64,000 bases of DNA from assembly GCA_028870995.1 (NCBI GenBank), contig JAGWOI010000002.1, positions 110,463 through 174,462 on the forward strand, read 5' to 3'. The stretch comes from Candidatus Omnitrophota bacterium (GTDB lineage: Bacteria; Omnitrophota; Gorgyraeia; Zapsychrales; Fredricksoniimonadaceae). The translations under genes were made by a program, and so were the position numbers. Under the pieces are notes generated by a model. The model was not told the origin of the DNA and ran no database searches. It was given only the letters and a program-made list of their open reading frames with translations. How positions within the stretch are numbered: the first letter of the stretch is position 1; the number at the start of each line of letters is the position of its first letter. Shown here in pieces: positions 21,001-63,607 of the stretch.

Positions 21001-24000
21001 CCAGACAACAGGCTCGTGCCGCCGAGAGGATGCAGAAAGCCTATGAGAGATATTGCCAGGTTTTGGCCAAAGGTTCTGCAGCGAAGGCGGGGGCCAATGC
21101 GGATACGGCTGAAGAGTTTAAGACGGCCGTAATCCAGTACGGTGCCGGCTTTATCGGCTTGCGCCGTTCTGAGAACGGCTACGAAACCATAGTGTTCCGT
21201 TCCAAACGCGAGCAGGAGATAAAGGACGAGGCCATGTACGAGAATGCCCAGGGCCGCAACAGCACGGCGCGATTTATCGATTACGCGTTTGCTAATGACA
21301 AAAAACCGCTGTGCCTTGAGCACATCGAATACAGCGGCGAGAAAGGCTGTTTGGAGCATCCCCTCGTCTGGGCCCTGGCCGTCGAACAGGCCGTCAGCTG
21401 GGGGAAAATCAGCAACAAGGAGACCGTGAAATCCTTCCGTGCCATGTTCCCCATGATCGAGACCGTCGAAGATTTTGACCGGGCCTTGGGCCTGGTGGCG
21501 GAAGCCATGAACTCCGCCGGATTGGATCCGCGCGGATTCATGAGGCAGATAGGCTCCATGCTCGAGACGCCGCAGGCCCTGGCCAACATGGAACTCCTGA
21601 TGCAAAAGGTGTTATTTTTCAGTGTCGGGACCAATGACCTTATCGCCAAACTGTATAAGGTCGACCGTTCCAATCCGAATCAAAGCGCCAGTTACTATAA
21701 GAACGTGCGGGTGTGGGCCACAACCCTGATCAGACAGGCCGTGGGCAAATCCAATGATGAGGGCGTTGACATTTCCATTTGCGGGGACTTGGCGGCCATG
21801 AAGAGATTCTGGTTTGTGTGGCACAACTGGGAAAGCCGCGGGTTCGAGGTGGGATTAAGCATGCCGGCGCCGATGATACCGGAATTCAAAGCCTGGATCA
21901 AGGTCCTCAAAGGGCTTGAATGTCCCGAACTGGATCAAATCAACCGGGCCATTGACCAGGCGCTTTGCGAAATGGAGGCCTTCCTGGCTGAAAACCACAC
22001 CAGGGAAGAGATACTGGCCAAGGATGGGGAACTCACCGAAAGACTTAATAAAACTTTTGACGAAACCCGTGTAGAGGAAAAACTGGAAAGGCTGATCCAT
22101 ATTAAGGCTTTAAGATGGACAGACAAGCAGGACGAGCAAACGCCGCAGGCCCGCCGGGTCTTAGGCTGGCTGCCCTACCTGCCGGCGCTGGTTTATCATC
22201 ACGGCTGGCGGGTGGTCCTGGCCCTGTTGCAATCCGATTATTACATTATCCGGGCATTCTTAAAGGTTTACGGAAAGTTTAAAGGCATCTTGAAATTCAT
22301 CGCTCACGGCGGGGTCGCCGCCTGGGCCAGTAATTTCGAACGCTCCCGCATATTGGAACAGATTCCCGACCTGCAGCGTCATGCCATCATCGCCCATGAG
22401 ATGACGCACCGACGTTGGTATGCACCGGAAGCAAAGGCTTACTTTGTAGAAGGGAAAATACTTTTGGAAGGTTTCACGGCACCCTTGAAGGCCGCCAAGA
22501 GCATTCTCCACGAACAAGTCATTCCTCTTTTAAACGAATCCCATTTGGAAGAACTGGCCACCGGCCAAGTGAGCCTGACCTATGATCCCAAGGTGCCGTA
22601 TACCGTCTTTTATATTACGCCCGATGTGCTGGCCATTAATTTGAAATGGCTGGAAAACGACGGCACCATCAACGCGTTAAGGACGACCTTCTTTTATCAC
22701 ATCATCTTGAATTATCTCGAGAATACCCCCGATAACGTGATCCGCAGATCGATGCATATGCCCGCAGGGTCCAGGGCCGGCGACAAATATTTCAGCGCCG
22801 GCGCCTTCGACAGTTCCTTCTTAAGAGACATCGACTTGCTGCTTATCGAGGACAGGTTGAAGAAAGTTTTGTCGGAACGCGCGGCGTACCGCCTCTCCTT
22901 CGACCGCGAGTTGATCGCCATCGGTATCCAGCGCCGTAATCGCGGTTCGTGGCGCAGGGTCAGGGGCAGGCCGTCGCGTACCGTGGTTTTGGAAATTGCG
23001 GCCCGGGCAGCCATTGCGGAGGCCACCGGATATGCCGTTGATGAAGACGAAGATCTAAAGAACCTGCTTGGCTATGCGCTCAGGCACAATGACAAGGAGT
23101 ATTTTCAACGCCTTAAAGAAGAATTGAAGAAGTTTTATTTGTCGATCGAATTCAATAATGAGTTTTCGCTGCGCGAAATATCATTGGAGGAATTCAGGAA
23201 GATGAATCCGCTGGCCAGGCTTGCCTATGTTTATTCCTACGAAGGGCTGGGGATCATTCCCCCGGGGATGACGGACAATTTACGTGCCGCGCTGGAAGCG
23301 GCCGGCCGCGTGCAGCACCAGTACCTGGGTCTTTTGGCCGAAATGCCCATGATCGTCTACCGGTGGGCCGAGATCGACAAAAGGGACCTCTTTGCCCTGG
23401 ATGCCATCAAGGCAGTTTTGAAAACCATGGGGGTCAATGACAAGGATGAGATCGACAGGCTGTCCACCAATATTTGGAAAGGCCAGTGGGACAATATCCG
23501 CCTCCAGGAAGAGGCCAGCCGGCTTCCGGGCTCTGATATCAAATCGGAATCGGAGATAGTTCCCTTTAAAACCACACGGCAGTTGCGCGAAACCTGGGAA
23601 TATTATTTTAATGCGGATAAAACTCCGGCGGAACGGGCGCAGGATTTCTATCGATTTTATAAGAACATCATCGATGCCATATTAAACGGCACCTGGACAC
23701 CGGAACTTTACAAAAAACTGTGGGAAGAAACCAAGAAAATCCTGGAGGAGTTTAGAAGCATGGCTCAAAGCGCGCCCGAAGGCAGCCTGAGTCAGGAGGA
23801 AAAGGCCAAGACCATATTGGAACGTATCTTTGCCGCCAAACCTTATGTGCCGGCTTCTTCGGGCCTGTTCTTTTTCAAATACATCCACGGCGGATTATCC
23901 ATTTTTGATATTTTCCCGCCCGATTCATACCTGAACAATATTTATTACACCTTGCGTGGGATCATCGAGAAAAAATCCACCCGGTTCGAAATATTGTTCC

Positions 24001-27000
24001 AGGCCTATGACATGCGCAGCCGCATGTTGTTCCTGAAACAGCACGGATGGGTGACGGACAAGCCTTATGAACAGCTGACCATTGAAGAGAAGTTGTATGT
24101 GGACGGCATTTATCAGCGGGTCAGCAAGAACGAGGTACAAAAAGCCAACCAGCGCTTGAGGGCTGCAGGGATGCCGGCCGACACCCGTGTGGTGGTCATG
24201 TATAAAATGATGGTTGAGGAACAAGACCGGCTGGTGGAAAAGGTGACCATCGAAAAGGGGCTCTCGCTGGGAGATTGGGCGCGAAGTTTGACTAATAAAG
24301 AAGTGGTTTACCCGCCGCATTTCGATCCGGAACATGTGCCGTCATCCAAGGTGCTCATCAACAGCGAGGAACTATTCAGGTACGTGCTTTACAGTCTTTT
24401 ACAGAAGTCCGGGACATCCCTCAGCAGGGAACAACAGGAATTGATCCGTGCGGTTGAAGCCAAAGAATCCTTTAGCGAGATGAAAAAGATAATACATCTT
24501 CCTAATGGTCCCAGGTCTGGTCCGTCGAATTCCGGCGGGACAGCTGCATCCAGTATCGCGGGCGCAGCCGTGTTGAAGGGAGGCTTGATCAAGGCGGGAG
24601 GAGCAGCAGCCGTTAAGGCAGGTCTGTCGGCCGTCCTTGTCTCTGCTGCCGCGCTTCTCGTGGCCGGCATGGGGGTTTTGGCCGTCTGGGGTATCAGGAA
24701 GTTTCTGGCCCGAAAACAAAATTCGGAGAATCCGAGTGTTCCGCAAGAGGCAGCTTTTGCCGCTCCTGCCGAAATCCCGCCGGCCTTGCGCCCGCGCAGC
24801 GCCAAGGAACAGTCCAAATTCGAACTTTCCCTGAAGCTTTTGCAGGACCTGAAGCATCCCACACGAGTTCTGTTCGTGGTGCCCATGTACAAAGAAATGA
24901 AGCGTTTAAGCCCTGAGGGTGAAGATGCGCTGCGCATGAAGGTGGCCCAGATGCTGTATTTAAAACAAAACAGCGTGTTTTTCGACGGCAGGCTGTTGTT
25001 CATCGACGATGGGACCCCGCAGATGGCTTCCCGTCAGGCCGTAGAACGGTTGTGGAACGAAATCCGCGGCGAGTATGCGGCCCAAGGCATGGTTCTTGAT
25101 GAAAAAATGGTCGAGGTCATGGAAGTGTCCGGGCAGGAGAAGAAAGCGACCGGAAGCCGCAAAGGTTACGCGGTCAAAAAGGCCATGCGCCGGGCGTTGG
25201 CGGAGGGCTGGGCACAGTTTATCGGCTATACTGATGTGGACATATCTACCAACCTGGTGCAGGTCCCGCTTTTGCTTTTCCCTCTGCTTTCCGGTCAGGC
25301 TGATGCCGCCATCGGCTCCCGCTATGCCGCTGACGCTGAATCCCGGGGCGTTTCCACGGAGCGGGTCAAGTCCTCCCGGCAATACCTTACGGCGGTGCAT
25401 ACCATCTTGCCGCCGTTGAAGGGGATTTCAGACACCCAGCGCGGCTTCAAATTATTCGACCGCGGCCTCCTCGAATTCATTCTCGCCTATTCGCATGACC
25501 AGAACGCCTTTAAATATGCCCAAGAACCGGGGCTTTCATTCGATACCGAGCTTTTGCTGTTGACCAAGCTGGCCAGGGGCAAGATCGCCGAAGTTTCCAT
25601 CGCCTGGTTCGATTCCGCTGAAGAAAGCACGATCAATCTCGGCAAGGACGCGTACAAGATGCTGCTGGGGGTCGTAAAGCAAGCCCGCTTATGGATCAAT
25701 CCAGTGACGGTGCTGCGCTTAAGGGAGTTCCACCGCAGCGGCCCGACTGCACCCGGCATCTTGACGACGCATTTCTGGGCCTGGGTGAAGGCAGAGATCG
25801 CCGCCGGACGCATGGTGGACATCATGCTTAAACCCGAAGTGATGGCCTGGGCCAAGCGGCCCGACGGAGAGACCTATCATGACTTTATTTTGCGCCGCTT
25901 AAAAGAGGAGGGATATGAATATTACCTCCTGCCGCAGCTTGACTTGGGTCTTCAAGGGGCATTCGAATTCTACGGCCGTGATCATCTTTGGGGCACGGGG
26001 GGCAAGCCTGCACCGAAATTGAACAAGCAGGGCAGCTGGTATCTGTTCGATGACATTCTTCCCTATATGGCCTCTGGACCGGTCAGGCCGGTGCTGGTCT
26101 ATCGCCGGCAAGGCATCAAGATAGAAGAATTAAAGACCGTGGTGATCGCCGGTATCCGCAAAGACCTTAACGCCGGGCTGGTTGAAAACAGGATCCACAG
26201 CGCCGACAGCATGGAAAGTGCCCAACAGGACATCAAGATCCTCTCCCAATATTACTTGAGGGATGCCGTTCATGTGCACAGCGCGCTCGATAAAATCTTT
26301 TTTAAGTACAGGACATTGATCGTTGCCGCGGACAAGGACAAGACCCTGACGGAATCTCATGAAGATTTGCCTCCGGGAACCGCGGCATTGATCGCCGGGA
26401 TCATCAAGTTGGGCGGTGCCTTTATTCTGGCCTCCGGATCAGGCATAGAGCGCCTGGAGAAGGAATTTATCAGCCAGCTGCGTGCAGCAATGGGCGGCGA
26501 GATCAAGGCTAACGACCTCCTTTATGTGATCTGTAACAACGGCTCTGCGGTTTATGAAATACGGCTGGCCGACGGCAGGCGCAAGAAAATTTATGAGGAC
26601 AACCTGGAAGAGATCGTAGGCAAGGGCAAGTTCCCGCTGGTTGAAAAGATCCTTAACGAATTTGTCAGCGAGCAGGAGGAAATAAGAACGCTTAAAATCA
26701 TGATGGAGGACCTTGAGGCCAAAGGCAAAATCAGCCGGGGCGCGTCCAGGCAGGTGAGGGTCACGCATTTGAGGGCCAATTTACAGATCCTGGGCGATCT
26801 GGGTGAAGAGTTTAAGGCGCTCCGGAATAATTTTGATCCACAACGCCAAAAACGCCAGCCCTGGGCCAGGATCATCCAGCAGCGATTGGATGAGGCCGGG
26901 ATACCGCTCAAGGCAGAGGTTTCCGGGACATCGACCATCAACATCCTGCCCAAGAACGTCAATAAGGGCAGCGGCATGATGCTGCTGCTCAAACATTTGA

Positions 27001-30000
27001 AGGCTGACAAGGAGCAGGTGGTTTATTTAGGAGATGAGTTCCTTGAAGACGGCAACGACCATGCGGCAGCGGCTCTCGGGATAGGGCTTACCATTAATGT
27101 GGGACATCGGGAGGCGGAAAAAATCCCGGAACCCTTCATCAATTCCACCATATTGGGTCCGAGAGCGGGCATAGAGTATCTGATGATCATCAGGGACGTC
27201 CTGCCCGCCGAGAAAATCTGGAGGCTGTCATGGCTGCGTAAATTTGCGGGAAGCCTGATGATCATCGTGATCTTGACCTTGAGCGCCGCCTCAGTCCAGG
27301 CAGCGGTGATCGATGATCTTATTGCCAGCCAAAATCCCCGCACAGGGATGGTCGTCAGTTATCAGGGGACAACCAACGCTTATAATATCAACCAGGCCTA
27401 TGCTTATGACAATGCCGAAGCGCTCGAGTCCATGCTGTCGGCAGGCAGGACCAACGAAGCCAAAAGATTGTTTTATGCCTTCTTTGATGTTTATAAGGAC
27501 AACGCAGTTAATTTTGACGGTTTCGATAATTCTTACAACGTTACCAATGGCGCTGTGGGCAATGAAAATTACCCGACGGCAGGGCCCAACCTGTATTGGG
27601 GGATCGCAGGCATCGATTATGCCGCAGCGATGCAGGACACCAACGGCATTGTCCTTGCCGAGGCTGTCTTTCATTGGACCCATGGGCTCAGGCATCTCAA
27701 CGGCGCCATTGCCTTCGGCAACAGCGGCATTTGGCCGGGGATTTTCTCGACAGAGCACAGTATCGATAATGTGGGTTTCCTGCGTAAATTCCTGCCGTTG
27801 GCCTCAGGCGTCGAGGCGGCGTCAGCCGAAAACGATCTAAATGCGGCGAGGAACTGGTTAAGCACCACGGCCTTTGACAGGGCAGCGGGCCTTTTCAACA
27901 GCGGCCTCAATGCCGCAGGCATCGACAATACCCGTGCGGCGGATACAACCAGCCTGTCCATTCTTCTTGGGACCGATGAGGTGCGCCGTTGGGGCATGGA
28001 TCCTGATGTGCTTTTTGCCAAAAGCGTTGTTGTTTTTGCCGCAGGAGACCGGGGATTTGATATTTCAGATGCGTTCAATGCCTTGCGCGTGCCGCGTGGC
28101 ATGTATCCCTTCGGCGAATTCACGGCCCAAATGTCCCAGGCGTATGCGTTGATGGCCCAGGATGCTTTGCAGCAAGGGCACGCCGCGCAGGCGGATCTTT
28201 ATGCCGTGGAGGCAGCCCGGTACCTCTATCTTTTGACGGCAACGAACACCTATCCGTATTGTCCCGCCGTTGGTATCCAGGTTTTTTGGAATAATCCTTC
28301 TTTTAAGACCGTTAACGGCAGATCCGCTGCCGTGATGGCAAGGATCGTTCAGTCGGCCGATGGGTATAACCCATTCGATGTGATGCCGTCCTTAAATCTG
28401 ACCGTGGGGATTTCGCAGAAGACCAATATTTTCCTTCAGATCATCCGCAATGATCCGCGGCTGATCAGAGGCGTGGTGCAATATTCGACAAATTTGATCG
28501 ATTGGTTGCCGTTGAGCACCAATAGCCTGTCCTCGCGGACCAATTCCTGGATGGACAAGAATGCCGTCAAACAGCATCCTAAAAAGTTTTACCGCGTCAC
28601 AGCGCCGCAGCCGCTATCGTCCAATAACTCCACCCTTCCTGTGACCATGGCCATGGCAGGAGCGGTTGTTCTCTGGAAGAGGCGAAAGATTTTGACGGCG
28701 CATGCTTATCCGGCCAGGGGAACGGATCGCGGCCCGACGGATCATCGGATAAAATCCGGAGAGGATGATAAGGGGGTGCCGATGGGCCTGGCCACCTTTG
28801 TCCCGACGGACTTGGCAGAAAGATACCGGTTTGCCGCGCAGGCCCATCAGCAGGACTTGGTACGCGAACTGCGGGAAAAATTCGGTGCGTATGGTTTCAC
28901 ACGATTGGTTTATCCGGCGGCGGGCGGCGATCACATGACGGTATTGTCTGCCTTAAGGATCTGGCCGAACATCGAGGAATTGCATTTCATTGACCCCGTG
29001 CTGGATGAGCAGTCGATCAGGCAATGGCAGGACAATCTCGAGACCCAAGGCGGTCTTTGGGGCCTTGCCGACGTGCCGGAGGCGACCTTCATCACCGGGG
29101 ATTATAGAGCTAATCCGCCGCTTGGCCCCACCACGGGACGAACCTTATTTATCGATAAAACTCCCGGACAGAAAGGGTGCTTAAGGCAGGACCCGCAGTG
29201 GGTGAAGGCCCTTTTGAGGGATGCCCGTGCCGGAGACGCCATATTATCGCTGAATATTATTTCGAATCCGGTGTTAAATATCGCTGGTGTACAGCTGGGG
29301 CCGCTGACCTTGCCGCATGACTATGATCATCAACAGCAATGGTGGTTGACCCGATTGCCTGCGGCAGTGGAGAAGAATGGCTATAACGGGTTTAAGTTCA
29401 GGCGGGGATATAACGGACCTGCGGTATTGCCTGGTGTGCTGGATGATAAGTCAAGGCCGTGGCTGCTGGCCCAAGGCTCCTGGGGCAAGGTGGAAAGAAC
29501 ATCAGGATCGAGCCTTACCGAAGAAGAACTGGCGGAAATCAATGCCCAATTGACCAGGCAGAGACAGGCCCTGCTGCAGGATGCCGTATTCCGGGAGTCA
29601 CAACTGTGCATCGTTTCGCCAGCCCGTACTGCCGCCCACTTTGAAACCCGCGGCAGGCAAGTGCCCCGCATCGCTCTCGACACCCGGACCTTTATCAATC
29701 CTGATCTCTTGCGGATAGTTCTAAGTCATGAATTCAAGGATTTATATTACCAGGCAAAGTATCCCCAAATCCCCATGATCGTCAGGGAAATGCTCAGTCA
29801 TCTGACGGTTGATGTCCGGGAATTCATGGCGCTGGTGACCAAAGACCGCCGCCGGGCCCGAAAACTCCTCGAGGATTACCGCCAATTAGCCGATGTCAAC
29901 GGCATGTACAGGATCTATTCCCTTATTTACAACAACCGCTATGAAGGGCCGCTGGGCCTGGCCGGGGAGGTTTATTACATGCTGACCCGTGAGCCGCTTT

Positions 30001-33000
30001 ATTTCCAGAGCCAGCGTGAAGCCATGGCCAAACTTTCCCTCTCCCAGGTGCTGGCGCATGAAATTTTCAAGAAGGAAATCCAGGCCGGGAGCATACGATT
30101 CAATGACCAAGACCAGGGAGAGATGGGCTTTACAAAGGATATACCCGTTACCGAAAGACCGCGTAAAGCATTCTCTTGGGGCAGGCCATGGCAGGAGCCT
30201 GAAGGACGCCAGATGGATCTGGGCCTGGATATTAAATCTTTTACAGGGTTCTTGCTTCTTATGGCCGCAAGCCTTTCGTTGACCGGCTGCAGCAGTCATC
30301 ACGCAGCAGCCGCTGTGGCCGACCTTGCGGCGGGCGTCATGATGGCCGTCGCAGGGACCCTGTTTTCCATGACGGTCTTGCTGCGTCCCCAATCCCGCTT
30401 TATGAAATGGCTGCTGACCGTATCAACCACACGTTGGCACGACCGGTTTAAGATGAGGTTGTTTGAATGGATTTCCCTGGGCCTGCCTTCCATCAAAAAA
30501 CATTTGCAGATCAACATCGTTTTGCCTGGCTCCGCGTCTTTAAGAGCAAACCATGCTGTTTCGCTGCCGCCGGACGTGGCCATGAAAACGCTGGCCATGA
30601 AAGAATCCCAGGAAAATATTTTGCGGATACAACAAAAAGGCTGGGCCCTGAATAATTTTACGGGAGTGCTCCATCCGCAGAATCCTCAAATGCAGCGGGG
30701 ATTGGAATCAGCGACAGCTGGAGATCTGCAGGGCGAGGGGAATCAATACATGCCCGGGACGGCCGAGGCACCGGTGGTTTTGACCTTTGACGGGAAAAAG
30801 ATATGGCAACGCCTGCCATTAAACGGACGTTCAGAGCTTGCACCGGGCAGCGTTGTTTATGCCGTTTGGCATCACCCGAAAGACCCGAATCAATACATGG
30901 AAGGCGTTTTGTCCTTGCAAGATGACAGCCGGAATAAGGTCATCCCCAGGGTACATGAGGGCAGTTGGGAAATCCTCACCGCCCATGACCACCAGGACTA
31001 TGTGAGACTGCGCCCCAACTTGCTGGCCGTGGTTCCGGTCACCGACGTCTACCATAGACAGAGACAGGCGGTGGGTGCTTTTCAAGGAAGCCACGGAGTA
31101 TTTTTGTTGGGGCCTGGCCTGGATCGCCGGGAAGCACTGGAGCGCATGACCAGGGGGCTGGTCCTGGCGGGAATCCTCGGTGAGAGCGGCAAGCTGATTG
31201 TCAGCAGCCGCCGGCAAAGCGACAACACCGACATATCCACTATCCAGGAGGCGGCACTGGCCTGTGCCGGCACCGTAAGGCAAAAGGAAATTTTCACTAT
31301 TGGCCGTAACGGCGACACCATATCCGGAAACGGCGCCGGGCCCATTAAAGGCCTGTGGGTTTGGTTCAACAATCCGCATGCGCGTAAGATTTATTTCGAA
31401 GGCAAGAGAATCGATTCGTTGAGAATTTGCCTGTTCGGCTTTCCGGGCGAACCCCTGGCCCACCTGGTTTCCGGCGCCTACAGCCAGTTTTCCGTTACAG
31501 GGCTTATCGGCCTCTCGGATGCCGACGGTTCCTTCAGCGAACTGGCGGCAACTCAGGCCGGAAGGCTTTCTTCCGGACTTTGCCAGGTTCTGGCCCAACG
31601 GCCCATTCCTTTAAAACCCGAAGGGTTAATAAACCTGTTGGAACGCTACAAGCAGGCGGTCGATTATTATGCCTCCCAAGGCGGACGGTTGGGCGACGCC
31701 TTAAAGCAGGCGGATGCCGTTATCGCGGGAGGGAAACAGGGATCCTTCAGCCGCGATTACGCGGAGAAATTCGCCGGGTACATTGTTGTCGAGTCATCGC
31801 CCGGCGCTATCACGGCGGAGGCCAGGGACCATTTGCTGGCCAAGGGCATTTTTGTATTGGGTAACTCTGTCGTTGAGATCGGGCCGTCCCTGGCAGCCAA
31901 AACAGGGTATATCAGCGCCAAAAAAGGGACAGCGGCTCCCCCCGAAATGCTTTTGCAGGACAGGATGTTCTTTGAAATGATGGTCCGGCTCATGAACGAC
32001 CTTGAAGCTGCCGCCAGGAAGTTTGATAAGACACCGACGGAATTTGGGCAAGCCTATCAGGACATCGTTCTTCAGGGGGAAGAGTCTTTTAATAAGACAA
32101 TAACCCAGTTGAGCGGGGCTTCGGTCGCCGCCTTGCGGTCGCTGGCTTTGGTCAAAGGCGATGCTCCGCTATGGAATAACCGGACCTACGAGGCGCTTTT
32201 GGCCCTGCGCCGGTGGGACGTGCTCGATCAGTCCATGCAAACCCTGGCTGCCGTCCGCCAGAGGATAAAGATCCTGGTCGGGGAGCAGCGGGAAGGCATA
32301 GTGTTTGTTGATCTGGCCGCGGCCCGGGAAGATGAAGCCAAGATCGAAAAAAGGATCCCTGAAGAAAAGAAAGATTATGAAAAAGACCTTAATGGACTGC
32401 CTCCTTCCCTGCGGTCAGGGTTTGAGACGTTCCTGGCCGGGATCAAGGGGACACCGGAATTAAGGGTCTTGAAGCGTCTGGCCTACAATATTTTTATCGT
32501 GAACCTGCCGTTTAACCTGGCGTTCCACTTCGCTGTTTATGACGAGGCCTACCGCGGCAGGCTGTTGTCCTACCGTTCTCAAGATCAATGGATGGAACTT
32601 TTAATGCGCTGTTCTCAGGAAACCAAACCGTTGGATACCATTAATGCCATCTTTGCCCTCTCTCACCTGGAGCTTCCGCCGGCCATAAGGGGAGAGATCG
32701 TTTCCATGATGGACCAGATGTTCTCCTTGAGCCTGAGGGCTGATCCGGTCAGCAAAAGCCTTTCGACCAGCGCCTTAAAGACATTAAGCGTTTCCCAAGC
32801 CATCGTGGTGACCAACAAGGAAAGGACAGAGCGCCTCCTTAACGCGGTTTGCATGATGGCTCTGGAAAGGATGAACATTACCTCGGCGGGTGACACGCTC
32901 CTCAATCAGATGGCCAATTACAGCCAAATGGATGTGACCGTGCAGAAGTGGTTTGAATTTGCGTTGAGCCAGTATAGTCCGCCCTGGCGGGAGCTTTATG

Positions 33001-36000
33001 ATGAGGCGTACGAAAAGATCGAGCGCTGGCGCGGCTATTTCAGGATGCAGGGCTGGCTTGACGATGAAGGGTTCCATCCTGAGAAGGCGGCGCATGGGAG
33101 CAAAATACAGTCAGATTTTGTCACGGCGGCCGGCGATTTCCGTTCCTGTGCGGTCTTAAGCGAGATGTGGGCCCGGACCCTGGAAGAGCACGCCGGAACT
33201 CCCGAATGCCCGGAAAGGACGCGAAAACACCTGTTGGAATCGGCCCAGGCCCTCAAGAGGCAAAAGCAGCGGCACTATGAATTTGCCGCACGCCTGGCCG
33301 ATGCTTCACGCCTGGAAGGGACCGTGCTGGCCATGTTTCGCCCCAAAGAGGCCTGGCCGCTTTGGATGAAGGCCGGGGACATGCGCCAGGCGCGTCTGGC
33401 CCTCTCTTCCATGATTTCCTGGCGCGAGGCAGGCAAACGTTGTGCCAAACAAGAGGTGCCGGACGGCCAGGCCCCTTGTCTGGTCAACCTGGCGCAATAT
33501 GTCACAAGGCCCAACGTGCTTACGCATACTTTTATGGGCATCTTCATGACCAACAGCCTGACACAGAACCATCAAACTGATATGGCCGAGGTTTACGATA
33601 CATCTTTTGATTTGGGAAGCACGCTGTCACGGTATGTCAATGAGCACCGCGAATTCATGGAAGGGGTCATCACGCGCGAATCGTTGAATAAGCTCGGCGC
33701 AGAGGCGTTCCTGCAATTGACCGACGGGCAGAATGGCCTTCTAAAGGCGGTTTCACCCGGCCTGCTGCGTTTCCGCAAGGAAATGAACCAGGTCTCTCTG
33801 GGACAAATGCGTGAGGTCTTTGGCGGCCAATATGAAGACGTCCTGGCAGCTTTGAACCAAAAGCAGGCGTCCTTGACCCTGGAAGAAAAGACACCTGTCG
33901 CCCGGGCCATTATCGCGGACTTTGCCGCCTCTTCGCACCGGCTGGCCCTGCTGAACAACAGCATTTATCTTGAGCACGAACGCCTGTATGTGTGGGTCCT
34001 TCTTAGTGTTTTCGGGCTCTATTTTACCGATGAGAGGATGGACCGTTTTGTGCGCAACATGGTCGTCAGCGGCCAAGGCGGGGGCATTTCGGGGCAGGAC
34101 ATGCAGGCCCATGTGGCTGCCGTCGAAAAAACGATGGACCTGGAGCTGGGCAGGAGCCAGGCCTTTATGACGGCCGGGACCGAAGCCATGAGGCTGTGGC
34201 TCTCGAGCAAGGTCCATGAAATCAAACAGGGATTCAGCTGCGGGATGGGGACGGTTGAGGGCAACAGCATGAGCAAGCAAGCTGAACACCTGACCCGCCA
34301 GGCACTAAGCGACGGGAAATTGGTAAGATTCAATGAATTCAAGCCTGCGACTCCGGGGCCTTATGACCCCCTCGCTGCCGCACTTCTGGAAGACGAGCGG
34401 GTGCGGCTATTTATCCCCGCTGTGAGCCTTGATGGCCGCGGCCCGCCGTATCTTTGGTTTAAATCAAAAGAACATTTCCTGGTTTCCTGTGTCCTGGACG
34501 GCCATATCATAGTTCCTGTAGGCCTTCTGGATAATCCGCATTTACTGGAAGTTTTGCGTTTTGAGATGGCCAATCTTATTTCCGGTGAAGAGACCGTCCG
34601 GGAATCTGCGCTGTTGGCAAGCAAGGTTTTATCATCCGCGGCCGGTGATTTCACCGGCAGGACTGATTTGGACCGGCGGATCATCCAGCGTGTCCGGCAG
34701 TTGGAACGAAATTTTCGGCGTCAAAAGGCGGCTGACGCCAATACGCCAACCATCTTGAACTATATTTTCTCGCGGACCCGTTATAAGAAGGGCCGTTTTG
34801 TCGTCCATCCTCTTGAAAAATTAAAGGGACATACCCGCACGCACCGCCTCCGAGGTTCTGATTCAAGCCCGAGGCCGTACATGCCGGGCGAGGCGATTGA
34901 GTTTCTGGAAGAGGAGATCATTGCGCGTCTTCAGATTTTGGGCATGGAGGCGGACATCGTGGTGAATGCCAATCCGGCGGCCGAAGGCCATTTTATGATC
35001 ATGCCCCGGCGCGGCGCGCATTTGCCCCAGTATCTTGACAGCCCCGAATACTTGAAGGCGGCTTTAACTATTTTAAGATCTTCACGGCGTAAAAATTTAA
35101 AGATCACGTTCGGCAGTAAGTACACGGCTTCCATCGACCACCTGCATTTTAATGCTTTTTATTATGGCGGGGCCGGGTTGGGGCTGGGTTTATTCTGGCC
35201 TTTGTTTAACGCGGGCAAGCTTCCTGCGGAGAAGGCGGCCCGGCAGGTTTTATTTGAACGCCGGACAGTGACAGTCATGGGCCTGGAAGATTATCCGGTC
35301 AAGGGTCTTGTCTTTTCATCGCAGGACGACGCTGCCCTGACCGAGGAGATATTTAACTATATTCAAATCCTGAACCGTCGCAAGATCGCCTATAACCTGT
35401 TGATGACGAAAAGCGGCACCTATGTATTTGTCATGAACGGCAACCGGGTCAACCGGTTCCACATGAAGATCACCTCCATTGCCGTGGCCGGAGAATATAC
35501 GATGCGGTCCCATCACAGGCGAGGCCTGATGGAGAAGGACATTGCCGGGGATTTAATGGGCTTTTCCGTTGACGGCAAAACGTTCGATGAAACGGCCGAA
35601 GAGCTGGCCCATGGACCCCAAGACCGCACGTTTAAAAGACGCGTTGATTTGAAATTCCTGGTCACTGAAGAAGAGGCCCAAAGGTTCCGCGGCGTTATTT
35701 TAGCCCAGGGAATGTTGCTGGATGAATACTGTGCAAGGGGGCCTTATTTTATTGACAGTGTTTATTGGGACAGCCCTGAGTGGCGGCTTTGGCATGAGGA
35801 AGACGGAGGGAACGCGGGTGTTCCCAAGTTGAGGATGCGTTCCTATGATTCAAGGCATGTTTTATTTTTTGAGATCAACGAACGCAGCCAGGCGAACGTT
35901 AAAACAAAACAACGCACGCCGGTGACACCCGCGGGGGCGCGGGCTGTCTTTAACGGCGAACTGCCGGGCGATGATGATATTTTGGCCGAAGACAAGGCCC

Positions 36001-39000
36001 AGGGACGGGCGGCGCTGGGAGTGTTTGTGCAATTGGTTAAAGAGAAGGCTCTTGAGCCCAGGGTCCGGATTTCTTATCTGAGGGAGGCCTATTTATCGGC
36101 GGATGATGCCTTAAGGATAAGTTTTGACCGCCGGGTGAGCGCTGCCTTTGAAAAAGAACCTTTGGCTGCTGCGGAGCCGGGAACCCTGGTGGACATCTAC
36201 AGCCCCAAGGTCGTGGTGGAGATTAAATTTAAAGAGGAGCTTCCAGAGTGGGTTTCTTCGCAAATAACACGGCCGTTAAATTTAGCGCCCCAAGAAGTGC
36301 ATAAATTTTTGGACGCGGTGAGAAAATTACGCGCAGATCCTGCGCCGCTCGCCCTGCTCCTTCCCACTGCAGAGAATAAGAGCGATCTGGCTGTCCTGCT
36401 GTCCTTAAAGGATTCAAGGGCCCTGCTCGAGTTTTTATACGAGAAAGCCCGTCAAGAGAGGGACATCATCATGAGGGAAGGGTCATCGGGCCTTGCCCTG
36501 CGCCACACGGAGGCTTTCGACGGAAAAAAATGGGTTGTGACCACACCCGCGCAGCGGCTGGCGATGATGTATGAAATGGACAGGTGGAACGATCCTGTGG
36601 AGGACCACGTCCAATGGCAGATGAATGTCTTTGGCCCCATTCTTGATGAATGGGCGGAAGGCAAATTCGGCAGCCGCGGAGAAGGAAATTTTGCCGAACT
36701 CATGACCCTGGGAACAAGATGGACTCCGGAGATCAGCGGTCAAATGATAAGGCTGCAGGAGCTTTTGGAGAAGGCCGTAGAGGCGGATGAAGCGCAGAGA
36801 CGGAGATTCGAAGATTTGCTGGCCTATGTGCAATTAGAACGCAAACAAGGGGACGGCTTCCTCGATCTCGATGATCCCGCAGCCAGATTCGATGAAGAGC
36901 TGGATATTTCCGTGGCGGCGGACAGGGTTTTAGAAAGTTTTCTGGCCTCTGTCCAAAACCCTCACGCCATCGGAGAGGTTGTGGACATATATGATGAAAT
37001 TGATTTCATGAACCACCCGTCCTTGCGCGCCTATATCCAAAAACTTGTCAGTGGCGCCTTACAATTGACCCGGCGGCGTCCTGGGCGAGCCCCAATACAT
37101 CCGTCTGACAGCAAAGACCATGCCGCCAATGGTGCGACCCGAACACAAGTTGTCAAAGAATTGATGCGGTTGAGGGGGCTGCCGCCGGGCTGGAGGTGGA
37201 ACAAAATACCTTCAGGCGGCAAGGAAATCGACAAGGGCGTCAAGCTGTACCTGCAGTTGACCGGGAAAAAACGATTGGCCCCTTCCTGTGAAGTCATTTT
37301 TCTGCGCGCGCCTCCCCAAAGCCGTTACAGAGCATTTTGGCTGGACGAATTCCCCGGGCATATCGATATTTATTTAAGGCAGGACGCCACCGGCTGGGAC
37401 GTGGCCCACGAATTACTGGCGGCCTTTGAGAACACCACCCACTCACAAAATGAATTCTTCTGCAACGATGGCCATTCGATGGCATATCGGCGGCTTGTCT
37501 TTGATATCCTTCGTCCGTATGTATCCCGCTGTCCCGTTGATCACAGTGCCGCAACAATTGAACTCCAACTCAATACACTCAAGATGCAGGCCAAGGCTTT
37601 GCTGGCGCATCGTGAAAATCCCGGCAACGAGCACTGGAGCAAATTTTTACTGGCGGTGACCCAATATCTCAGGACTGATCCATATGATTTTGTTCTCTAT
37701 CTGATGCAGAAAGATCCCCAGCAGGCATTGTCGGGGAAAGCCGGGGATACGCCCAAGGTATTTTTGGCAAGAGTCCTGGCAAATGTCGCTGACAGGCTTG
37801 CTGTTTTGATCGTCCGTTACCGGGACCTGTCAAACCGCTTTCTCTATGGCAGCCTCAAAGCGGAAGAGAAAGAACACCTTTTCAGCCTGGCCGCAAACAT
37901 CCTTGATTATGCACCGCCAACGGAAGAGGAAACTCCTGTCCCAGAGGCCTTTCAGGTCCCATCCAAGGCACAGATTCAGGGGGCGGCTGTAAAGCTAGAA
38001 AAAGAAATATGGGATCTGATGGCCAGGCCGTTGAATGAAAAGGCTTACGGCAGGATGGTCCTCCTTTATCAGCAATCGGAAGAATTGAGAAAGCCGTTGA
38101 AAATGCCGCCGGAGTCTAGGGCGCTGCCTGCCTGGGTCAACATTCGAAAATTGCTAGAGGAAGACGATATCATCCCGGCCCTTGACCTCATGCTTTTGCC
38201 CGAGGCAGCTTTAAGTAAAACCAAAACGCAAAAAATGAAGGCGGTATGGGATGAGGCGGCTGAAAGAGTTATTGCTAAGTCGGATAGCCTGACCAAGGCC
38301 AACCGTAAGAAGGAAGCGCGCGAGATTTTACAAAAGGCAGAACGACTGTTGGTTTCCACCGAAGTTTATCCGGTTTACCAAAATCTTGCCCAAGAACTGC
38401 TTGCTCTCATCAATCAAAAACATCCCAGCGCCTTGAAGGCGCAGAGACTGCTGGAGGAGCACGCCGCTTATTGGTCAGATAACCGTATTGCCAAACAATT
38501 CCTCGAGGCCATGGCCGCCGAACGGCCGTATGGGAACATGGATAAGCTGCCCAAGCAATTGGCCCATATGTCGGGCTACCTGGTGGGGGAATTGGAAGGA
38601 TTAATTGCAGAATATGAGAAACTTTACCGCCCCTTGAGCATGACGCCGGAAAGCCAGAAGCAGTTCAAGATTTGGCAGGCCGAACACCCGGATCCGGGCG
38701 ACGAAGAATTGTGGGAAGAGCTGTACGGCCTGGCCCTGGTGGAAGAAAAAGATCTGCCTTACTCAAGCCGCGATCATTATGAGGTGCTTGAAAAAGTCTT
38801 TGAAACGCATCCCAAGGTTTTGAACGCTCAAACAGGTCAATCAGAGGATTTCGACGAGCAAAAGCACGGCAGGGACCTGGGGGGCGGTATTTATTTGCGG
38901 CTCATGAAGTACAGCATGGCCCATGATAGCGTTCTGCGCCTACTGATGCAGGGAACAAGGGGTCCTGCTTGTTCTCCCGACATCTCGCTGTTCCTTTGGT

Positions 39001-57256: not shown

Positions 57257-57916
57257 ATGCTTTATATTGTTTCTACTCCCATCGGCAACCTTAAGGACAT
57301 CACTTTAAGGGCCATCGAAACCCTTAAATCCGTTGACCTGATCGCCGCCGAAGACACCCGCCACACCAAGATCCTTCTTGATACCCATCAAATCCAAAAA
57401 CCCCTGACCTCCTTTTTTGAACACAATCAGCTTAAGAAAGCCGCACAGCTGATCGGCCTGCTCAAGGAAGGCAAGGCCGTTGCCCTGGTCACGGATGCCG
57501 GCACACCGGGCATCAGCGATCCTGGTTTTTCGCTGGTTCGCCTGGCCATGGAGAATGCTATTCCCATTACCGTCGTTCCCGGCGTCAGCGCCTGTGTTGC
57601 GGCCTTGACAGCATCAGGCTTGCCGTCGCACCGTTTCCTTTTCGAGGGGTTCCTGCCGCCCAAAAGCGGCAGCCGGCGCAATAAGCTGCTGGCTTTAAAA
57701 GATTTTGAGGGAACGGTTGTCTTTTATGAATCGCCCCACCGCCTGTTGAAGACGCTGGAGGATATGCGCCAGGTTTGGGATGACCCGGTCATCGTCGTGG
57801 CCCGCGAGCTTACCAAGAAATTTGAAGAGATCCGCCGGGACAAAGCCAGCGGCCTGCTGGAACATTTTCATGCCCATCCGCCCAAAGGCGAATTTGTTTT
57901 GTTGAGAAACGCCTAA
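57257..57916 (+). CDS. rsmI: 16S rRNA (cytidine1402-2'-O)-methyltransferase RsmI
   Basis: 'MLYIVSTPIGNLKDITLRAIETLKSVDLIAAEDTRHTKILL' is the canonical RsmI tetrapyrrole-methylase-fold N-terminus. Confidence 0.9.
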   Translation: MLYIVSTPIGNLKDITLRAIETLKSVDLIAAEDTRHTKILLDTHQIQKPLTSFFEHNQLKKAAQLIGLLKEGKAVALVTDAGTPGISDPGFSLVRLAMENAIPITVVPGVSACVAALTASGLPSHRFLFEGFLPPKSGSRRNKLLALKDFEGTVVFYESPHRLLKTLEDMRQVWDDPVIVVARELTKKFEEIRRDKASGLLEHFHAHPPKGEFVLLRNA

Positions 57917-57929
57917 GGCTCCTGCCCGA

Positions 57930-58882: not shown

Positions 58883-58979
58883 GCCAATTTAAATATATAT
58901 CATCCTATCACCCCGCGCAACCCAAATTCCGGGTATTAGGTTTATTTTTAATAAAAATTAAATATAATAAGAAGCGTTG

Positions 58980-59690: not shown

Positions 59691-59697
59691 GGGGCTC

Positions 59698-59970: not shown

Positions 59971-60093
59971 CGCCTCATTATTTCCCCGCAAGGCCCGCAA
60001 TGCAATAATACCCGCCTTTTAGAAGTTAATTCAGCTGTATTTTTCTTGAAATTTAAGAACAACAGAGGAAGGTTTTAAGAAAATTTTGGATTG

Positions 60094-62313
<2,220 letters not shown>

Positions 62314-62380
62314 TTAAAGCCCATTTTATGATACTGATTAAAGTATAAAATATAAGAATAGTTTAATCAAACAAGAATTT

Positions 62381-62956: not shown

Positions 62957-63607
<651 letters not shown>

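What the first reader, a model, noticed from the sequence alone, without database searches (positions are those of the whole stretch)
27225..30300. Signal-peptide-like, anchor-like and lipobox-like segments inside the giant ORF suggest fusion of formerly independent secreted and membrane genes
Three segments look like termini of separate proteins.
- 'KFAGSLMIIVILTLSAASVQAAV' at ~27,240-27,305 looks like a Sec signal peptide.
- About 460 aa later, 'STLPVTMAMAGAVVLWKRRKIL' at ~28,640-28,695 looks like a C-terminal membrane anchor.
- 'FLLLMAASLSLTGCSS' at ~30,241-30,300 is a textbook lipobox.
They sit tens of kilobases into the gene. In a fused protein they would act as signal-anchor and stop-transfer helices, placing some modules outside the membrane and others inside. 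This is a record of how giant genes accrete, and a predictor of complicated topology.
Basis: inference. Interest (0 to 1): 0.6.

Follow-up and report, generated by a model that had tools for sequence, protein, structure and literature searches.

The report
Export signals embedded in a giant gene
Inside a 14,397-residue membrane protein of an uncultured Omnitrophota bacterium, one internal stretch is a real signal-peptide look-alike sitting exactly where free-standing relatives of the next domain carry their true signal peptide; the "anchor" is weak and the "lipobox" is probably chance.

Summary
All three segments exist where stated, inside one uninterrupted ORF (nt 39-43232, 14,397 aa) of a Candidatus Omnitrophota genome. 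Giant multi-transmembrane proteins are already described for this phylum.

- **SP-like segment (aa 9066-9089).** This is the strong part. It directly precedes a confidently modelled (alpha/alpha)6 glycosidase/epimerase-like domain. More than 100 homologues exist. Free-standing ones carry an N-terminal signal peptide in the same register. About 35 others appear to carry a transmembrane helix upstream instead. Another giant ORF fragment (P0004) has a complete Tat signal, initiator Met included, embedded at residue 1816 before the same domain.
- **Junction.** A complete HAD hydrolase unit ends about 10-20 residues upstream, as end-to-end gene fusion predicts.
- **Age.** No recent fusion is visible: GC3 is continuous, there are no relic promoters or terminators, and no split orthologue was found.
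- **Anchor-like segment.** It has only 14 hydrophobic residues plus KRRK and scores poorly as a helix. It is conserved in the one close relative and matches no sorting-signal family.
- **Lipobox.** It is a single regex match (chance about 5%), with an acidic n-region and a strong helix 12 residues later. It is most likely a hairpin turn.
- **Topology.** It remains ambiguous.

Verdict: partly supported; a new member of a known kind.

The parts
39..43232 (+). Giant ORF, 14,397 aa, with about 30-40 hydrophobic segments. Pfam finds PEP-utilizers_C, HAD (Hydrolase_3/S6PP), VTC and adenylate kinase domains.
26307..27188 (+). Complete HAD-type phosphatase/phosphomutase-like unit (aa ~8757-9050). Motif I (DKDKT) lies at its start. 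Its end is ~10-20 aa before the SP-like segment.
   Evidence: Pfam Hydrolase_3 and S6PP. PDB 4bnd (253 aa) residues 5-233 align to aa 8761-9020.
27234..27305 (+). Embedded signal-peptide-like segment, aa 9066-9089: L-RK-FAGSLMIIVILTL-SAASVQA|AV. It has a basic n-region, a 13-residue h-core and a V-x-A c-region. It most likely acts as an internal signal-anchor that starts export.
   Evidence: Hessa-type sum -0.08. It aligns in register with the N-terminal signal peptides of homologues.
27309..28388 (+). (alpha/alpha)6-barrel glycosidase/epimerase-like domain (aa 9091-9450). No Pfam family matches it.
   Evidence: AF2 pLDDT >90 over residues 1-360. Foldseek PDB hits include 9ju0, 5z3c, 5zhb and GH76, E 3e-8 to 1e-5. 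More than 100 sequence homologues.
28389..28613 (+). C-terminal subdomain ending in ...KKFYRV (aa 9451-9525). It is conserved with P0005, P0003 and P0012 but modelled with low confidence.
28629..28694 (+). Anchor-like segment, aa 9531-9552: 14 hydrophobic residues (LPVTMAMAGAVVLW) plus KRRK. It is a possible stop-transfer, but marginal.
   Evidence: No sorting-signal HMM hit.
28806..29384 (+). Rossmann / class I methyltransferase-like domain (aa ~9590-9782, 'module 3').
   Evidence: AF2 model. Foldseek hits to ToxA, Dot1L, spermidine synthase and EgtD, E ~3e-4. Homologues include P0071, P0091, P0095, P0113 and P0136.
29451..30119 (+). Conserved domain of unknown function with a KHELTD-type motif (aa ~9805-10027, "module 2'"). 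It is common in other long multi-TM proteins. The ~600-aa free-standing versions have N-terminal signal peptides.
30213..30290 (+). Lipobox-like segment, aa 10059-10084: MDLGLDIKSFTGFLLLMAASLSLTG-C. It starts at an in-frame ATG. It has an 11-14 residue hydrophobic core and a net negative n-region.
30324..30380 (+). Strong TM helix, aa 10096-10114, followed by RPQSRFMK. It forms a hairpin with the lipobox-like segment and returns the chain to the cytoplasmic side.
   Evidence: Hessa-type sum 0.6; C-flank charge +3

Best explanation
The window holds a complete giant gene of a Candidatus Omnitrophota bacterium. Its product is a polytopic inner-membrane protein built from full-size protein units strung end to end.

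**SP-like segment.** The segment at aa 9066-9089 is a former N-terminal Sec signal peptide, or a faithful functional equivalent. It came in together with the (alpha/alpha)6 glycosidase/epimerase-like domain that follows it. It now works as an internal N-in/C-out signal-anchor. It re-initiates Sec translocation and places that carbohydrate-active domain outside the cytoplasmic membrane.

**Return to the cytoplasm.** The chain returns by one of two routes.
- (a) At the short hydrophobic-plus-KRRK 'anchor' (aa 9533-9552). The lipobox-like segment and the helix at aa 10096-10114 then form a hairpin.
- (b) Only at the helix at aa 10096-10114. In that case about 1,000 residues are exported and the two short segments do not span the membrane.

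**Lipobox.** The lipobox match is most likely a coincidence at a hairpin turn, not a relic lipoprotein start.

**Shown:** the ORF, the segments, the fold, the homologue architectures and the register of signal peptides.

**Inferred:** the direction of evolution (capture of a free-standing secreted gene), the present function as signal-anchor, and the topology.
For: **Organism and gene**
- Window GlmS is 85% identical to a Ca. Omnitrophota MAG, and the top ~30 hits are Omnitrophota or mislabelled PVC MAGs.
- Single 14,397-aa ORF.

**Domain after the SP-like segment**
- AF2 pLDDT is >90 over 360 residues.
- Foldseek hits are (alpha/alpha)6 glycosidases and epimerases.

**Homologue architectures**
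- Exhaustive HMMER found 171 hits.
- Of 99 homologues that start with Met, 78 have a hydrophobic segment N-terminal to the domain.
- About 16 have the domain within 60 residues of the N-terminus, behind a classic signal peptide.
- About 35 have it behind a coiled coil at residue ~270-345. The two scanned have an N-terminal PilZ domain. Eight of the nine of this type examined have one TM at ~125-140.
- In-register alignment of the embedded segment with true signal peptides, including the A/V-x-A motif.
- Free-standing genes verified on contigs.

**Embedded signals elsewhere**
- P0004: MLSRRQMLKGLVLAGMALPFMTSRAYA|DEP at residue 1816 of a >=2,121-aa open frame that also holds a Bac_transf domain.
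- Internal Tat-like motifs in 24 long proteins: 2 observed against 0.10 expected (P=0.003). Both are in P0004.

**Junction and flanks**
- Complete HAD unit ends just upstream.
- Flank charges fit N-in/C-out for the SP-like segment (+3/-1). They fit C-in for the helix at 10096-10114 (+3 after it).
- Downstream domains (VTC, adenylate kinase) are normally cytoplasmic enzymes.

**Literature**
- Numerous TM helices, interleaved enzyme domains and a cellobiose-2-epimerase-like fold have been reported in Omnitrophota giant proteins.
Against: **Resemblance may be functional only**
- A basic n-region, a hydrophobic core and small residues after it are expected of any N-in/C-out helix that precedes a large exported domain. 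The resemblance alone therefore does not prove descent from a signal peptide.
- The uncharged stretch is 23 residues, long enough for an ordinary TM helix.

**The embedding is old**
- The closest relatives of the domain (P0003, P0004, P0005; 33-52% identity) are themselves in long or truncated ORFs. The nearest free-standing one is at 37%. Whether embedding happened once or repeatedly is not resolved.
- There is no compositional discontinuity. There are no relic transcription signals. No orthologous locus with split genes was found.

**Family is not uniformly exported**
- About 10% of family members show no export signal.

**Topology evidence conflicts**
- The methyltransferase-like fold of module 3 argues for a cytoplasmic location and supports route (a).
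- Free-standing homologues of module 2' and contexts of module 3 have N-terminal signal peptides or an upstream TM and support route (b).

**Method limit**
- No dedicated predictor (SignalP, DeepTMHMM) could be run.
Confidence: 0.6

Rival explanations
1. **Polyprotein processing.** The embedded signal peptide is not just an anchor. Signal peptidase I cuts it after VQA (between aa 9089 and 9090). The giant translation product would then be split into separate membrane-anchored or periplasmic polypeptides. This is how internal signal sequences are cut in flavivirus polyproteins.
For: - The geometry is that of a cleavable signal: a 13-residue h-core plus a 6-7 residue c-region with V at -3 and A at -1.
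- All three copies that sit inside, or at the cut start of, a long ORF keep an A/V-x-A motif in the same register as the free-standing homologues. These are the window, P0004 (embedded) and P0003 (at a contig edge). They are only 33-37% identical to the window domain.
- Uncleaved anchors are under no selection for that motif.
- The literature names cleavage of these giants, and the lack of known cleavage points, as an open question.
- From my own knowledge, not checked here: engineered internal cleavage cassettes are cut by E. coli leader peptidase.
Against: - There are no experimental data.
- A/V-x-A-like motifs are common by chance after Ala/Ser/Gly-rich helix ends. My rough estimate is ~0.25 per segment when a few registers are allowed.
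- There are only three copies, and one (P0003) lies at a contig edge.
- Signal peptidase genes of this organism were not examined.
Confidence: 0.2
2. **One long exported loop.** The SP-like segment opens a ~1,000-residue extracytoplasmic region (aa 9091-10095). It closes only at the helix at aa 10096-10114. The anchor-like and lipobox-like segments are short hydrophobic patches that do not span the membrane. This differs from the reader's topology but is compatible with the capture scenario.
For: - The anchor has 14 hydrophobic residues, and its 19-mer sum is >7.
- The lipobox core has 11-14 residues and scores 2.48.
- Free-standing homologues of module 2' (P0041, P0064, P0143, P0150) have clean N-terminal signal peptides.
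- P0095 has an N-terminal signal peptide. P0091 has a sigma-70 region 4 domain, a TM helix, and then module 3.
- In P0024 and P0083 a hydrophobic segment lies just upstream of module 2'.
Against: - The KRRK cluster directly after the anchor is conserved as RRKWK in P0005. There it is followed by two further hydrophobic segments that obey the positive-inside rule.
- Module 3 has a SAM-methyltransferase-like fold, which would need a cytoplasmic cofactor.
Confidence: 0.35
3. **Helices evolved in place.** All three segments are ordinary topogenic helices that arose within the giant gene. Their likeness to termini of separate proteins carries no historical information.
For: - About 30-40 hydrophobic segments occur in the protein.
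- The lipobox is at chance level.
- No recent-fusion signals are present.
- SD-like motifs upstream of the candidate fossil starts are weak evidence. They precede ~6% of all codons, and most real genes in the window lack one.
Against: - The signal peptides are in register with those of free-standing homologues.
- The embedded Tat consensus with initiator Met in P0004 has no obvious role in an internal helix.
- Complete protein units abut with 10-20 aa linkers.
Confidence: 0.2
4. **Nested genes.** Translation also starts internally, at CTG nt 27234 or ATG nt 30213. Free secreted or lipid-anchored proteins would then be made from within the giant ORF.
For: - GGAGG lies 9 nt before the CTG, and AAGGA lies 6 nt before the ATG.
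- P0004 has GGAGA about 4 nt before its embedded Met.
Against: - SD-like 5-mers precede ~6% of all codons in the ORF.
- Only 2-3 of 16 real genes in the window have an SD.
- CTG is a poor start codon.
- No promoter-like excess was found.
- What follows the lipobox is a TM helix, not a lipoprotein body.
Confidence: 0.04

Closest known systems
Giant multi-transmembrane proteins of Candidatus Omnitrophota ('Archaeovorin'-type and related; West-Roberts et al. 2023 bioRxiv 10.1101/2023.11.21.568195; 2026 preprint 10.64898/2026.06.07.730766)
   Same: - Omnitrophota host.
- A single ORF of more than 10,000 aa.
- Many predicted TM helices.
- Metabolic enzyme domains, including a PEP-utilising (PPDK-type) domain, interleaved with carbohydrate-active domains.
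- A cellobiose-2-epimerase-like (alpha/alpha)6 fold and a SAM-methyltransferase-like fold that are visible only by structure prediction.
   Different: - Pfam at E<=0.01 finds no SecA-DEAD, HEAT, GT5/GT1, C39 or S8 domains here.
- Neither paper's text contains the word 'fusion'.
- The 2026 preprint explicitly discards internal signal-peptide calls as artefacts.
Internal signal sequences and stop-transfer sequences of polytopic proteins and viral polyproteins (signal-anchor / stop-transfer model; flavivirus polyprotein processing by signal peptidase). Cited from established knowledge, not tested here.
   Same: - A hydrophobic segment with a basic N-flank precedes a large exported domain.
- It is followed by a hydrophobic segment with a basic C-flank.
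- A small-x-small motif is positioned for signal peptidase.
   Different: - This is a bacterial chromosomal gene.
- There is no evidence of cleavage.
- The stop-transfer candidate is unusually short.
Free-standing secreted (alpha/alpha)6 proteins, and the PilZ-TM-coiled-coil-(alpha/alpha)6 proteins found by the exhaustive search (e.g. P0006, P0037, P0111, P0010, P0036). This is an uncharacterised family without a Pfam model.
   Same: - Same domain: 25-37% identity, E down to 3e-28.
- Same placement of a signal peptide or TM helix N-terminal to it.
   Different: - They are ordinary 370-800-aa genes with their own start and stop.
- In the window the unit lies 9,065 residues into an ORF.
Bacterial lipoprotein signal peptides (Lgt/Lsp pathway)
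   Same: L-T-G-C matches the lipobox pattern after a short hydrophobic core, 26 residues after an in-frame Met.
   Different: - It is not N-terminal.
- The n-region is net negative.
- A strong TM helix follows 12 residues after the Cys.
- The occurrence is at chance level.

Membership tests
Omnitrophota giant membrane proteins (Archaeovorin-like) | Encoded in an Omnitrophota genome | tested here: met
   Window GlmS is 85% identical to Ca. Omnitrophota bacterium REEB160, and the best ~30 loci are Omnitrophota MAGs. An identical fragment lies in NCBI MAG GCA_028865175.1.
Omnitrophota giant membrane proteins (Archaeovorin-like) | Single ORF of more than ~7,000-10,000 aa | tested here: met
   14,397 aa, nt 39-43232, no in-frame stop.
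Omnitrophota giant membrane proteins (Archaeovorin-like) | Numerous transmembrane helices | tested here: met
   About 30-40 hydrophobic segments by Kyte-Doolittle and Hessa-type sums. No dedicated predictor was available.
Omnitrophota giant membrane proteins (Archaeovorin-like) | Divergent SecA DEAD / preprotein-binding domains, HEAT repeats, GT5/GT1 domains | tested here: not met
   Pfam over the whole protein at E<=0.01 finds only PEP-utilizers_C, Hydrolase_3/S6PP, VTC, ADK and AAA_17, plus a sub-threshold DUF7863 match. Divergent copies could be missed.
Omnitrophota giant membrane proteins (Archaeovorin-like) | PPDK-type domain and structure-only carbohydrate-active or methyltransferase-like domains | tested here: met
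   PEP-utilizers_C at E 8e-26. (alpha/alpha)6 fold. Methyltransferase-like fold.
Cleavable Sec (SPase I) signal peptide | Basic n-region, 7-15 residue h-region, small residues at -3/-1 | tested here: met
   RLSWLRK / FAGSLMIIVILTL / SAASVQA|A, read from the sequence. However, the uncharged run of 23 residues could also span the membrane.
Cleavable Sec (SPase I) signal peptide | Located at the N-terminus of the translated protein | tested here: not met
   It starts at residue 9066 of the ORF.
Cleavable Sec (SPase I) signal peptide | Followed by a domain that is exported in homologues | tested here: met
   78 of 99 Met-start homologues have a signal peptide or TM N-terminal to the domain. The register is conserved.
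Cleavable Sec (SPase I) signal peptide | Actually cleaved by signal peptidase | not testable with these tools
   This needs N-terminal proteomics or expression experiments.
Lipoprotein signal peptide (Lgt/Lsp) | Lipobox [LVI][ASTVI][GAS]C after a hydrophobic core | tested here: met
   LTGC at aa 10081-10084 after FLLLMAASLS.
Lipoprotein signal peptide (Lgt/Lsp) | N-terminal position and positively charged n-region | tested here: not met
   It is internal. MDLGLDIKS has two Asp and one Lys.
Lipoprotein signal peptide (Lgt/Lsp) | Occurrence beyond chance / conservation in relatives | tested here: inconclusive
   P = 0.04-0.06 in this protein. P = 0.31 across 24 long proteins. No homologues of this stretch exist to test conservation.
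C-terminal sorting signals (LPXTG-sortase, PEP-CTERM-exosortase and relatives) | Signature motif recognised by family models | tested here: not met
   No NCBIfam sorting-signal hit at E<=1. LPVTM lacks the Gly and is LPYIP in the relative P0005. There is no PEP motif.
C-terminal sorting signals (LPXTG-sortase, PEP-CTERM-exosortase and relatives) | Hydrophobic stretch plus basic tail at the very C-terminus | tested here: not met
   The hydrophobic-plus-KRRK pattern is present, but 4,845 residues follow it. In the relative L001 the ORF ends ~100 aa later, after two more helices.
(alpha/alpha)6-barrel glycosidase/epimerase superfamily (GH15/GH76/AGE-like) | Six-hairpin barrel fold | tested here: met
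   AF2 pLDDT 85 (>90 over 360 residues). 155 PDB matches at E<=1e-3, all of those listed being (alpha/alpha)6 enzymes.
(alpha/alpha)6-barrel glycosidase/epimerase superfamily (GH15/GH76/AGE-like) | Membership of a defined CAZy/Pfam family and catalytic residues | tested here: inconclusive
   No Pfam or NCBIfam hit. Invariant E149, D212, D251 and E270 in alignment A1 are candidate catalytic acids but were not mapped.

The most novel reading that the evidence does not exclude
Omnitrophota giant genes would be bacterial polyproteins, assembled by serial in-frame capture of whole genes together with their export signals. The retained Sec- and Tat-type signal peptides would still be recognised. Each would re-initiate translocation and be cut by signal peptidase. 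One 43-kb ORF would then yield a set of stoichiometric, co-localised membrane and periplasmic proteins. The A/V-x-A sites in front of the captured domains, here VQA|AV at aa 9089/9090, would be the long-sought cleavage points.
Probability: 0.15. Interest if true: 0.8.

Novelty: new member of a known kind. Interest (0 to 1): 0.4.

Why it matters
Published work on Omnitrophota giant genes leaves three questions open: how the genes grew, how such proteins are threaded through the membrane, and whether they are cut into pieces.

This locus gives a concrete, checkable example bearing on all three.
- A full-size cytoplasmic enzyme unit is joined by a 10-20-residue linker to what looks like a complete secreted protein that still carries its signal peptide.
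- Free-standing relatives show the same signal in the same register.
- A second organism's giant ORF embeds a textbook Tat signal before the same domain.

This points to whole-gene, in-frame accretion as one growth mechanism. It also nominates specific peptide bonds to look for in proteomic data.

It carries a caution for automated pipelines as well. Discarding internal signal-peptide calls as artefacts may throw away real information.

The lipobox part of the finding should not be built upon.

Tried and rejected
**Searches that found nothing**
- Word-indexed homology searches with aa 9063-9560 and aa 10040-10560 returned nothing. Only the exhaustive HMMER run worked.
- Three scans found no relative of this part of the giant protein: a genome scan and a metagenome scan with aa 9063-9800, and a metagenome scan with a two-sequence alignment of the anchor region. 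The orthologous locus in related Omnitrophota could therefore not be examined for split genes.
- NCBIfam found nothing for the anchor or the whole 27.2-35.6 kb region. The LPXTG and PEP-CTERM readings of 'TLPVTM...KRRK' were dropped.
- The accession prefixes of the MAGs were not found in the paper library.

**Tests for relic gene boundaries**
- Relic promoters or terminators at the junctions: counts equal the shuffles.
- Compositional step at the cassette: GC3 is 0.63 inside and 0.61-0.67 around it.
- Shine-Dalgarno relics: present before both candidate fossil starts. They are uninformative, because such motifs precede ~6% of codons and most genes in the window lack one.

**Alternative origins considered**
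- Recent intragenic duplication as the source of the (alpha/alpha)6 domain: a second copy exists at aa 1484-1841, but only at profile level (i-E 2e-9). The duplication is therefore not recent.
- Assembly artefact: an identical 5,150-nt contig in an NCBI MAG is open throughout. Its independence is unknown.

**Reclassified hits**
- P0008's 'internal lipobox' is better explained by a mis-called start of an ordinary lipoprotein gene.
- The KD peak at aa 8780-8798 lies inside the HAD domain match and was not counted as a TM helix.

Full report
**1. What is there**

The window carries one open reading frame from nt 39 to 43232 on the + strand. It has 14,397 codons and no stop. Ordinary housekeeping genes follow it: mutL, mutS, glmS, rsmI and pyrR.

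The GlmS protein is 85% identical to that of 'Candidatus Omnitrophota bacterium REEB160'. Its best ~30 matches are Omnitrophota MAGs. A 5,150-nt contig of NCBI MAG GCA_028865175.1 is 100% identical to window 28530-33679 and is open throughout. The locus is therefore a complete giant gene of an Omnitrophota bacterium.

This phylum is already known for giant, multi-transmembrane proteins. These interleave metabolic enzymes with carbohydrate-active domains.

Pfam recognises only four kinds of domain in the whole protein:
- PEP-utilizers_C (aa ~7003-7263)
- a HAD hydrolase (aa 8762-9027)
- VTC (aa ~11868-12095)
- adenylate kinase (aa ~13298-13418)

**2. The observation**

All three strings are present at the stated places.
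- The SP-like string is at aa 9068-9090 (nt 27240-27308).
- The anchor-like string is at aa 9531-9552 (nt 28629-28694).
- The lipobox-like string is at aa 10071-10086 (nt 30249-30296).

They are three of some 30-40 hydrophobic segments in the protein. I ranked the segments with a simple 19-residue sum of the Hessa biological hydrophobicity scale. The scale values are from memory, so this gives a ranking only.
- The SP-like segment is among the three best in the protein (-0.08).
- The helix just after the lipobox (aa 10096-10114) is good (0.6).
- The lipobox segment itself is marginal (2.48).
- The anchor-like segment does not reach the listing threshold. It has only 14 hydrophobic residues flanked by polar and basic ones.

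**3. The SP-like segment is the informative one**

*The domain that follows it.* A word-indexed search with the enclosed module found nothing. An exhaustive HMMER search with aa 9063-10262 found 171 relatives.

With an alignment of 28 of them, AlphaFold models aa 9091-9450 at pLDDT >90. The model matches (alpha/alpha)6-barrel enzymes at Foldseek E 3e-8 to 1e-5. These include dextran dextrinase, a GH-type glycosidase, cellobiose and glucose 2-epimerases, and GH76 mannanases. West-Roberts et al. recovered the same kind of fold from another giant protein.

*Architectures of the 110 homologues that cover this domain*:
- About 16 are 370-800-aa proteins in which the domain starts 30-55 residues from a Met, right behind a classic signal peptide.
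- About 35 are ~630-710-aa proteins with the domain at ~270-345 behind a coiled coil. The two scanned have an N-terminal PilZ domain. Eight of the nine proteins of this type that I examined have one TM helix at ~125-140.
- Overall, 78 of 99 Met-start homologues have a hydrophobic segment N-terminal to the domain.
- About 10% have none.

*Free-standing genes confirmed.* Two free-standing members were checked on their contigs and are independent genes.
- P0006 has its own start and stop, 1 nt after the preceding gene.
- P0037 lies among short-chain dehydrogenase and amidohydrolase genes.

*Register.* In a local alignment, the embedded segment of the giant protein lines up with these true signal peptides. 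This includes the A/V-x-A motif, which lies 16-22 residues before the conserved TG[LM] motif.

*Other giant ORFs.* The nearest relatives of the domain are themselves in long or truncated ORFs.
- P0004 is a 6,366-nt contig that is one open frame, with a Bac_transf domain upstream. At residue 1816 it embeds MLSRRQMLKGLVLAGMALPFMTSRAYA|DEP, a complete twin-arginine signal including a Met.
- P0003 is a 12,814-nt contig that is one open frame. It begins at the contig edge with SRRTFLKN...SARA|G.
- Across 24 long proteins, internal Tat-like motifs number 2 against 0.10 expected (P=0.003). Both are in P0004.
- A Tat consensus has no known use inside a helix, so it is best read as inherited.

*The upstream unit.* The unit upstream of the SP-like segment is a whole protein.
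- The 253-residue alpha-phosphoglucomutase 4bnd aligns from its residue 5 to residue 233 with giant aa 8761-9020. The alignment starts at motif I, DKDKT.
- This puts the end of the HAD unit at aa ~9040-9053.
- That is 10-20 residues before the n-region of the SP-like segment.

Two complete units abutting through a short linker is what loss of a stop codon between neighbouring genes would produce.

**4. Limits of the fusion reading**

Nothing indicates a recent event.
- GC3 of the cassette (0.63) equals that of its surroundings.
- Promoter-like and terminator-like matches equal the shuffled expectation.
- Shine-Dalgarno-like motifs occur before the candidate fossil starts (GGAGG before CTG 27234, AAGGA before ATG 30213). 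Such motifs precede ~6% of all codons, and most genes in the window lack one.
- A second copy of the same domain family lies at aa 1484-1841, but it is related only at profile level.
- No orthologous locus could be retrieved. Whether close relatives have the junctions split is therefore unknown.
- A basic n-region, a hydrophobic core and small residues are also what function alone would demand of an internal signal-anchor.

The case for descent rests on the register, the Tat example and the unit boundaries.

**5. The anchor-like segment**

It matches no sorting-signal model. Its LPVT is not conserved: P0005 has LPYIP. The pattern '~14 hydrophobic residues then RRK' is conserved in P0005, which is 52% identical.

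There it is followed by two more hydrophobic segments that obey the positive-inside rule, a 36-residue tail and a TGA stop. The next ORF starts 14 nt later in another frame and is unrelated to the window's downstream sequence. The cassette therefore occurs near a real or apparent C-terminus in one relative. That contig is short, and a frameshift error cannot be excluded.

**6. The lipobox**

LTGC after a hydrophobic run is unique in the protein, but expected by chance in 4-6% of randomisations. It is not enriched in the wider set of long proteins (1 observed, 0.38 expected).

Three further points argue against a relic lipoprotein start.
- The putative n-region (MDLGLDIKS) is net negative.
- A strong helix begins 12 residues after the Cys.
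- What follows contains no further strong hydrophobic segment for ~3,900 residues and includes the VTC and adenylate-kinase domains.

No homologue covers this stretch. I read it as the turn of a helical hairpin.

**7. Topology**

Two models fit.

- The SP-like segment exports aa 9091-9530.
- The anchor returns the chain, leaving KRRK inside.
- Modules 3 and 2' are cytoplasmic.
- The lipobox segment and the helix at aa 10096-10114 form a hairpin.

*Model (b).* One ~1,000-residue exported loop closes only at aa 10096-10114.

*Evidence for (a).*
- The conserved basic cluster.
- The methyltransferase-like fold of module 3. The AF2 model has pLDDT 76, and Foldseek matches ToxA, Dot1L, spermidine synthase and EgtD at E ~3e-4.

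*Evidence for (b).*
- The poor hydrophobicity of the anchor.
- Free-standing homologues of module 2' have N-terminal signal peptides.
- Module 3 occurs behind a signal peptide or TM helix in P0095 and P0091.
- In P0024 and P0083 a hydrophobic segment lies just upstream of module 2'.

I cannot decide between the two without a dedicated predictor or experiment.

**8. Comparison with what is known**

The object is a new member of the published class of Omnitrophota giant membrane proteins. It shares host, size, many helices, a PPDK-type domain and structure-only carbohydrate-active and methyltransferase-like domains. Pfam does not detect the SecA-like, HEAT or GT domains typical of 'Archaeovorins', so I do not file it under that subtype.

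Mechanistically, the arrangement works like the signal-anchor / stop-transfer logic of polytopic proteins and viral polyproteins. That comparison rests on established knowledge, not on a test here.

Neither paper's text contains the word 'fusion'. The 2026 preprint deliberately suppresses internal signal-peptide calls as artefacts. West-Roberts et al. list cleavage points and the origin of the genes as open questions.

**9. Verdict**

It is strong for the SP-like segment, as a captured or mimicked signal peptide in front of a normally exported domain.
- It is weak for the anchor and unsupported for the lipobox.
- Interest is moderate. The general phenomenon is known. The in-register signal peptides and embedded Tat signal give a concrete handle on how these genes grew. 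They also show where the products might be cut.

Noticed in passing
L002 (ENA ERZ795054, NODE_8727), protein P0004 residues 735 and 1816: A second organism's giant ORF fragment (>=2,121 aa, with a Bac_transf domain) contains two internal twin-arginine-type motifs. One is NRRGFLK plus a hydrophobic run. The other is a complete MLSRRQMLKG...AYA|DEP signal with GGAGA about 4 nt before its ATG. Expected by chance in 84 kaa of long proteins: 0.10.
   Followed up: partly
window 60094-62304 (-), also 57930-58421 (-) and 58418-58882 (-): A 736-aa predicted secreted protein has a very long (GNT)n / (GAS/GAY-GNT)n collagen-like triplet-repeat tail. The repeats keep several frames open on both strands. 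Two small Cys-rich secreted proteins just upstream share its N-terminal 'YP(A/S)P..(N/S)Y..(V/I/L).LS' motif. DNA similarity to the closest relative (L006, REEB160) jumps from window 57911 to 63041, so most of the stretch between rsmI and pyrR has no detectable counterpart at DNA level in the part of that relative I hold.
   Followed up: no
window 4488-5561 (giant aa 1484-1841), weakly 10629-10994 (aa 3531-3652): A second, very divergent copy of the same (alpha/alpha)6 family (profile i-E 2e-9) lies between the hydrophobic segment at aa ~483-501 and the TM at aa ~3689-3707. A third weak match follows.
   Followed up: partly
window 39-1600 (giant aa 1-520): The giant protein begins with ~300 residues of Pro/Ser/Ala-rich low-complexity sequence. 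A helix with an RKRNR tail follows (aa 305-323). Another signal-peptide-like segment comes next (KRIFAIGTVTTGLFLGALGVSPALG|AE, aa ~481-508). So even the first export signal is embedded ~480 residues in.
   Followed up: no
L001 nt 700-760 (JGI 3300038463, Ga0436665_0027584): In the 52%-identical relative, the ORF carrying the (alpha/alpha)6 C-terminus and anchor stops at TGA 724-726. The next 1,169-aa ORF opens at nt 713 in another frame (TTG at 740). A single indel would join them. This is either a genuine gene boundary or a frameshift in a low-coverage contig.
   Followed up: partly
window 28806-30119 (giant aa 9590-10027): Two conserved modules of unknown function recur in many long multi-TM proteins. 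One is Rossmann / methyltransferase-like, with YPAAGxD...IDP...LIDK[FW]PG. The other has a KHELTD...P.IDPALRELFTL motif. They also occur in ~600-aa signal-peptide-bearing proteins and in a sigma-70-region-4 + TM protein (P0091). Neither has a Pfam model.
   Followed up: partly
window 24630-24686 (giant aa 8166-8216): A 50-residue Gly/Ala-rich hydrophobic stretch holds the strongest-scoring helix of this part of the protein (aa 8198-8216). It lies between the PEP-utilising and HAD domains. Whether it forms one helix or a hairpin decides whether those two normally cytoplasmic enzymes are on the same side of the membrane.
   Followed up: no
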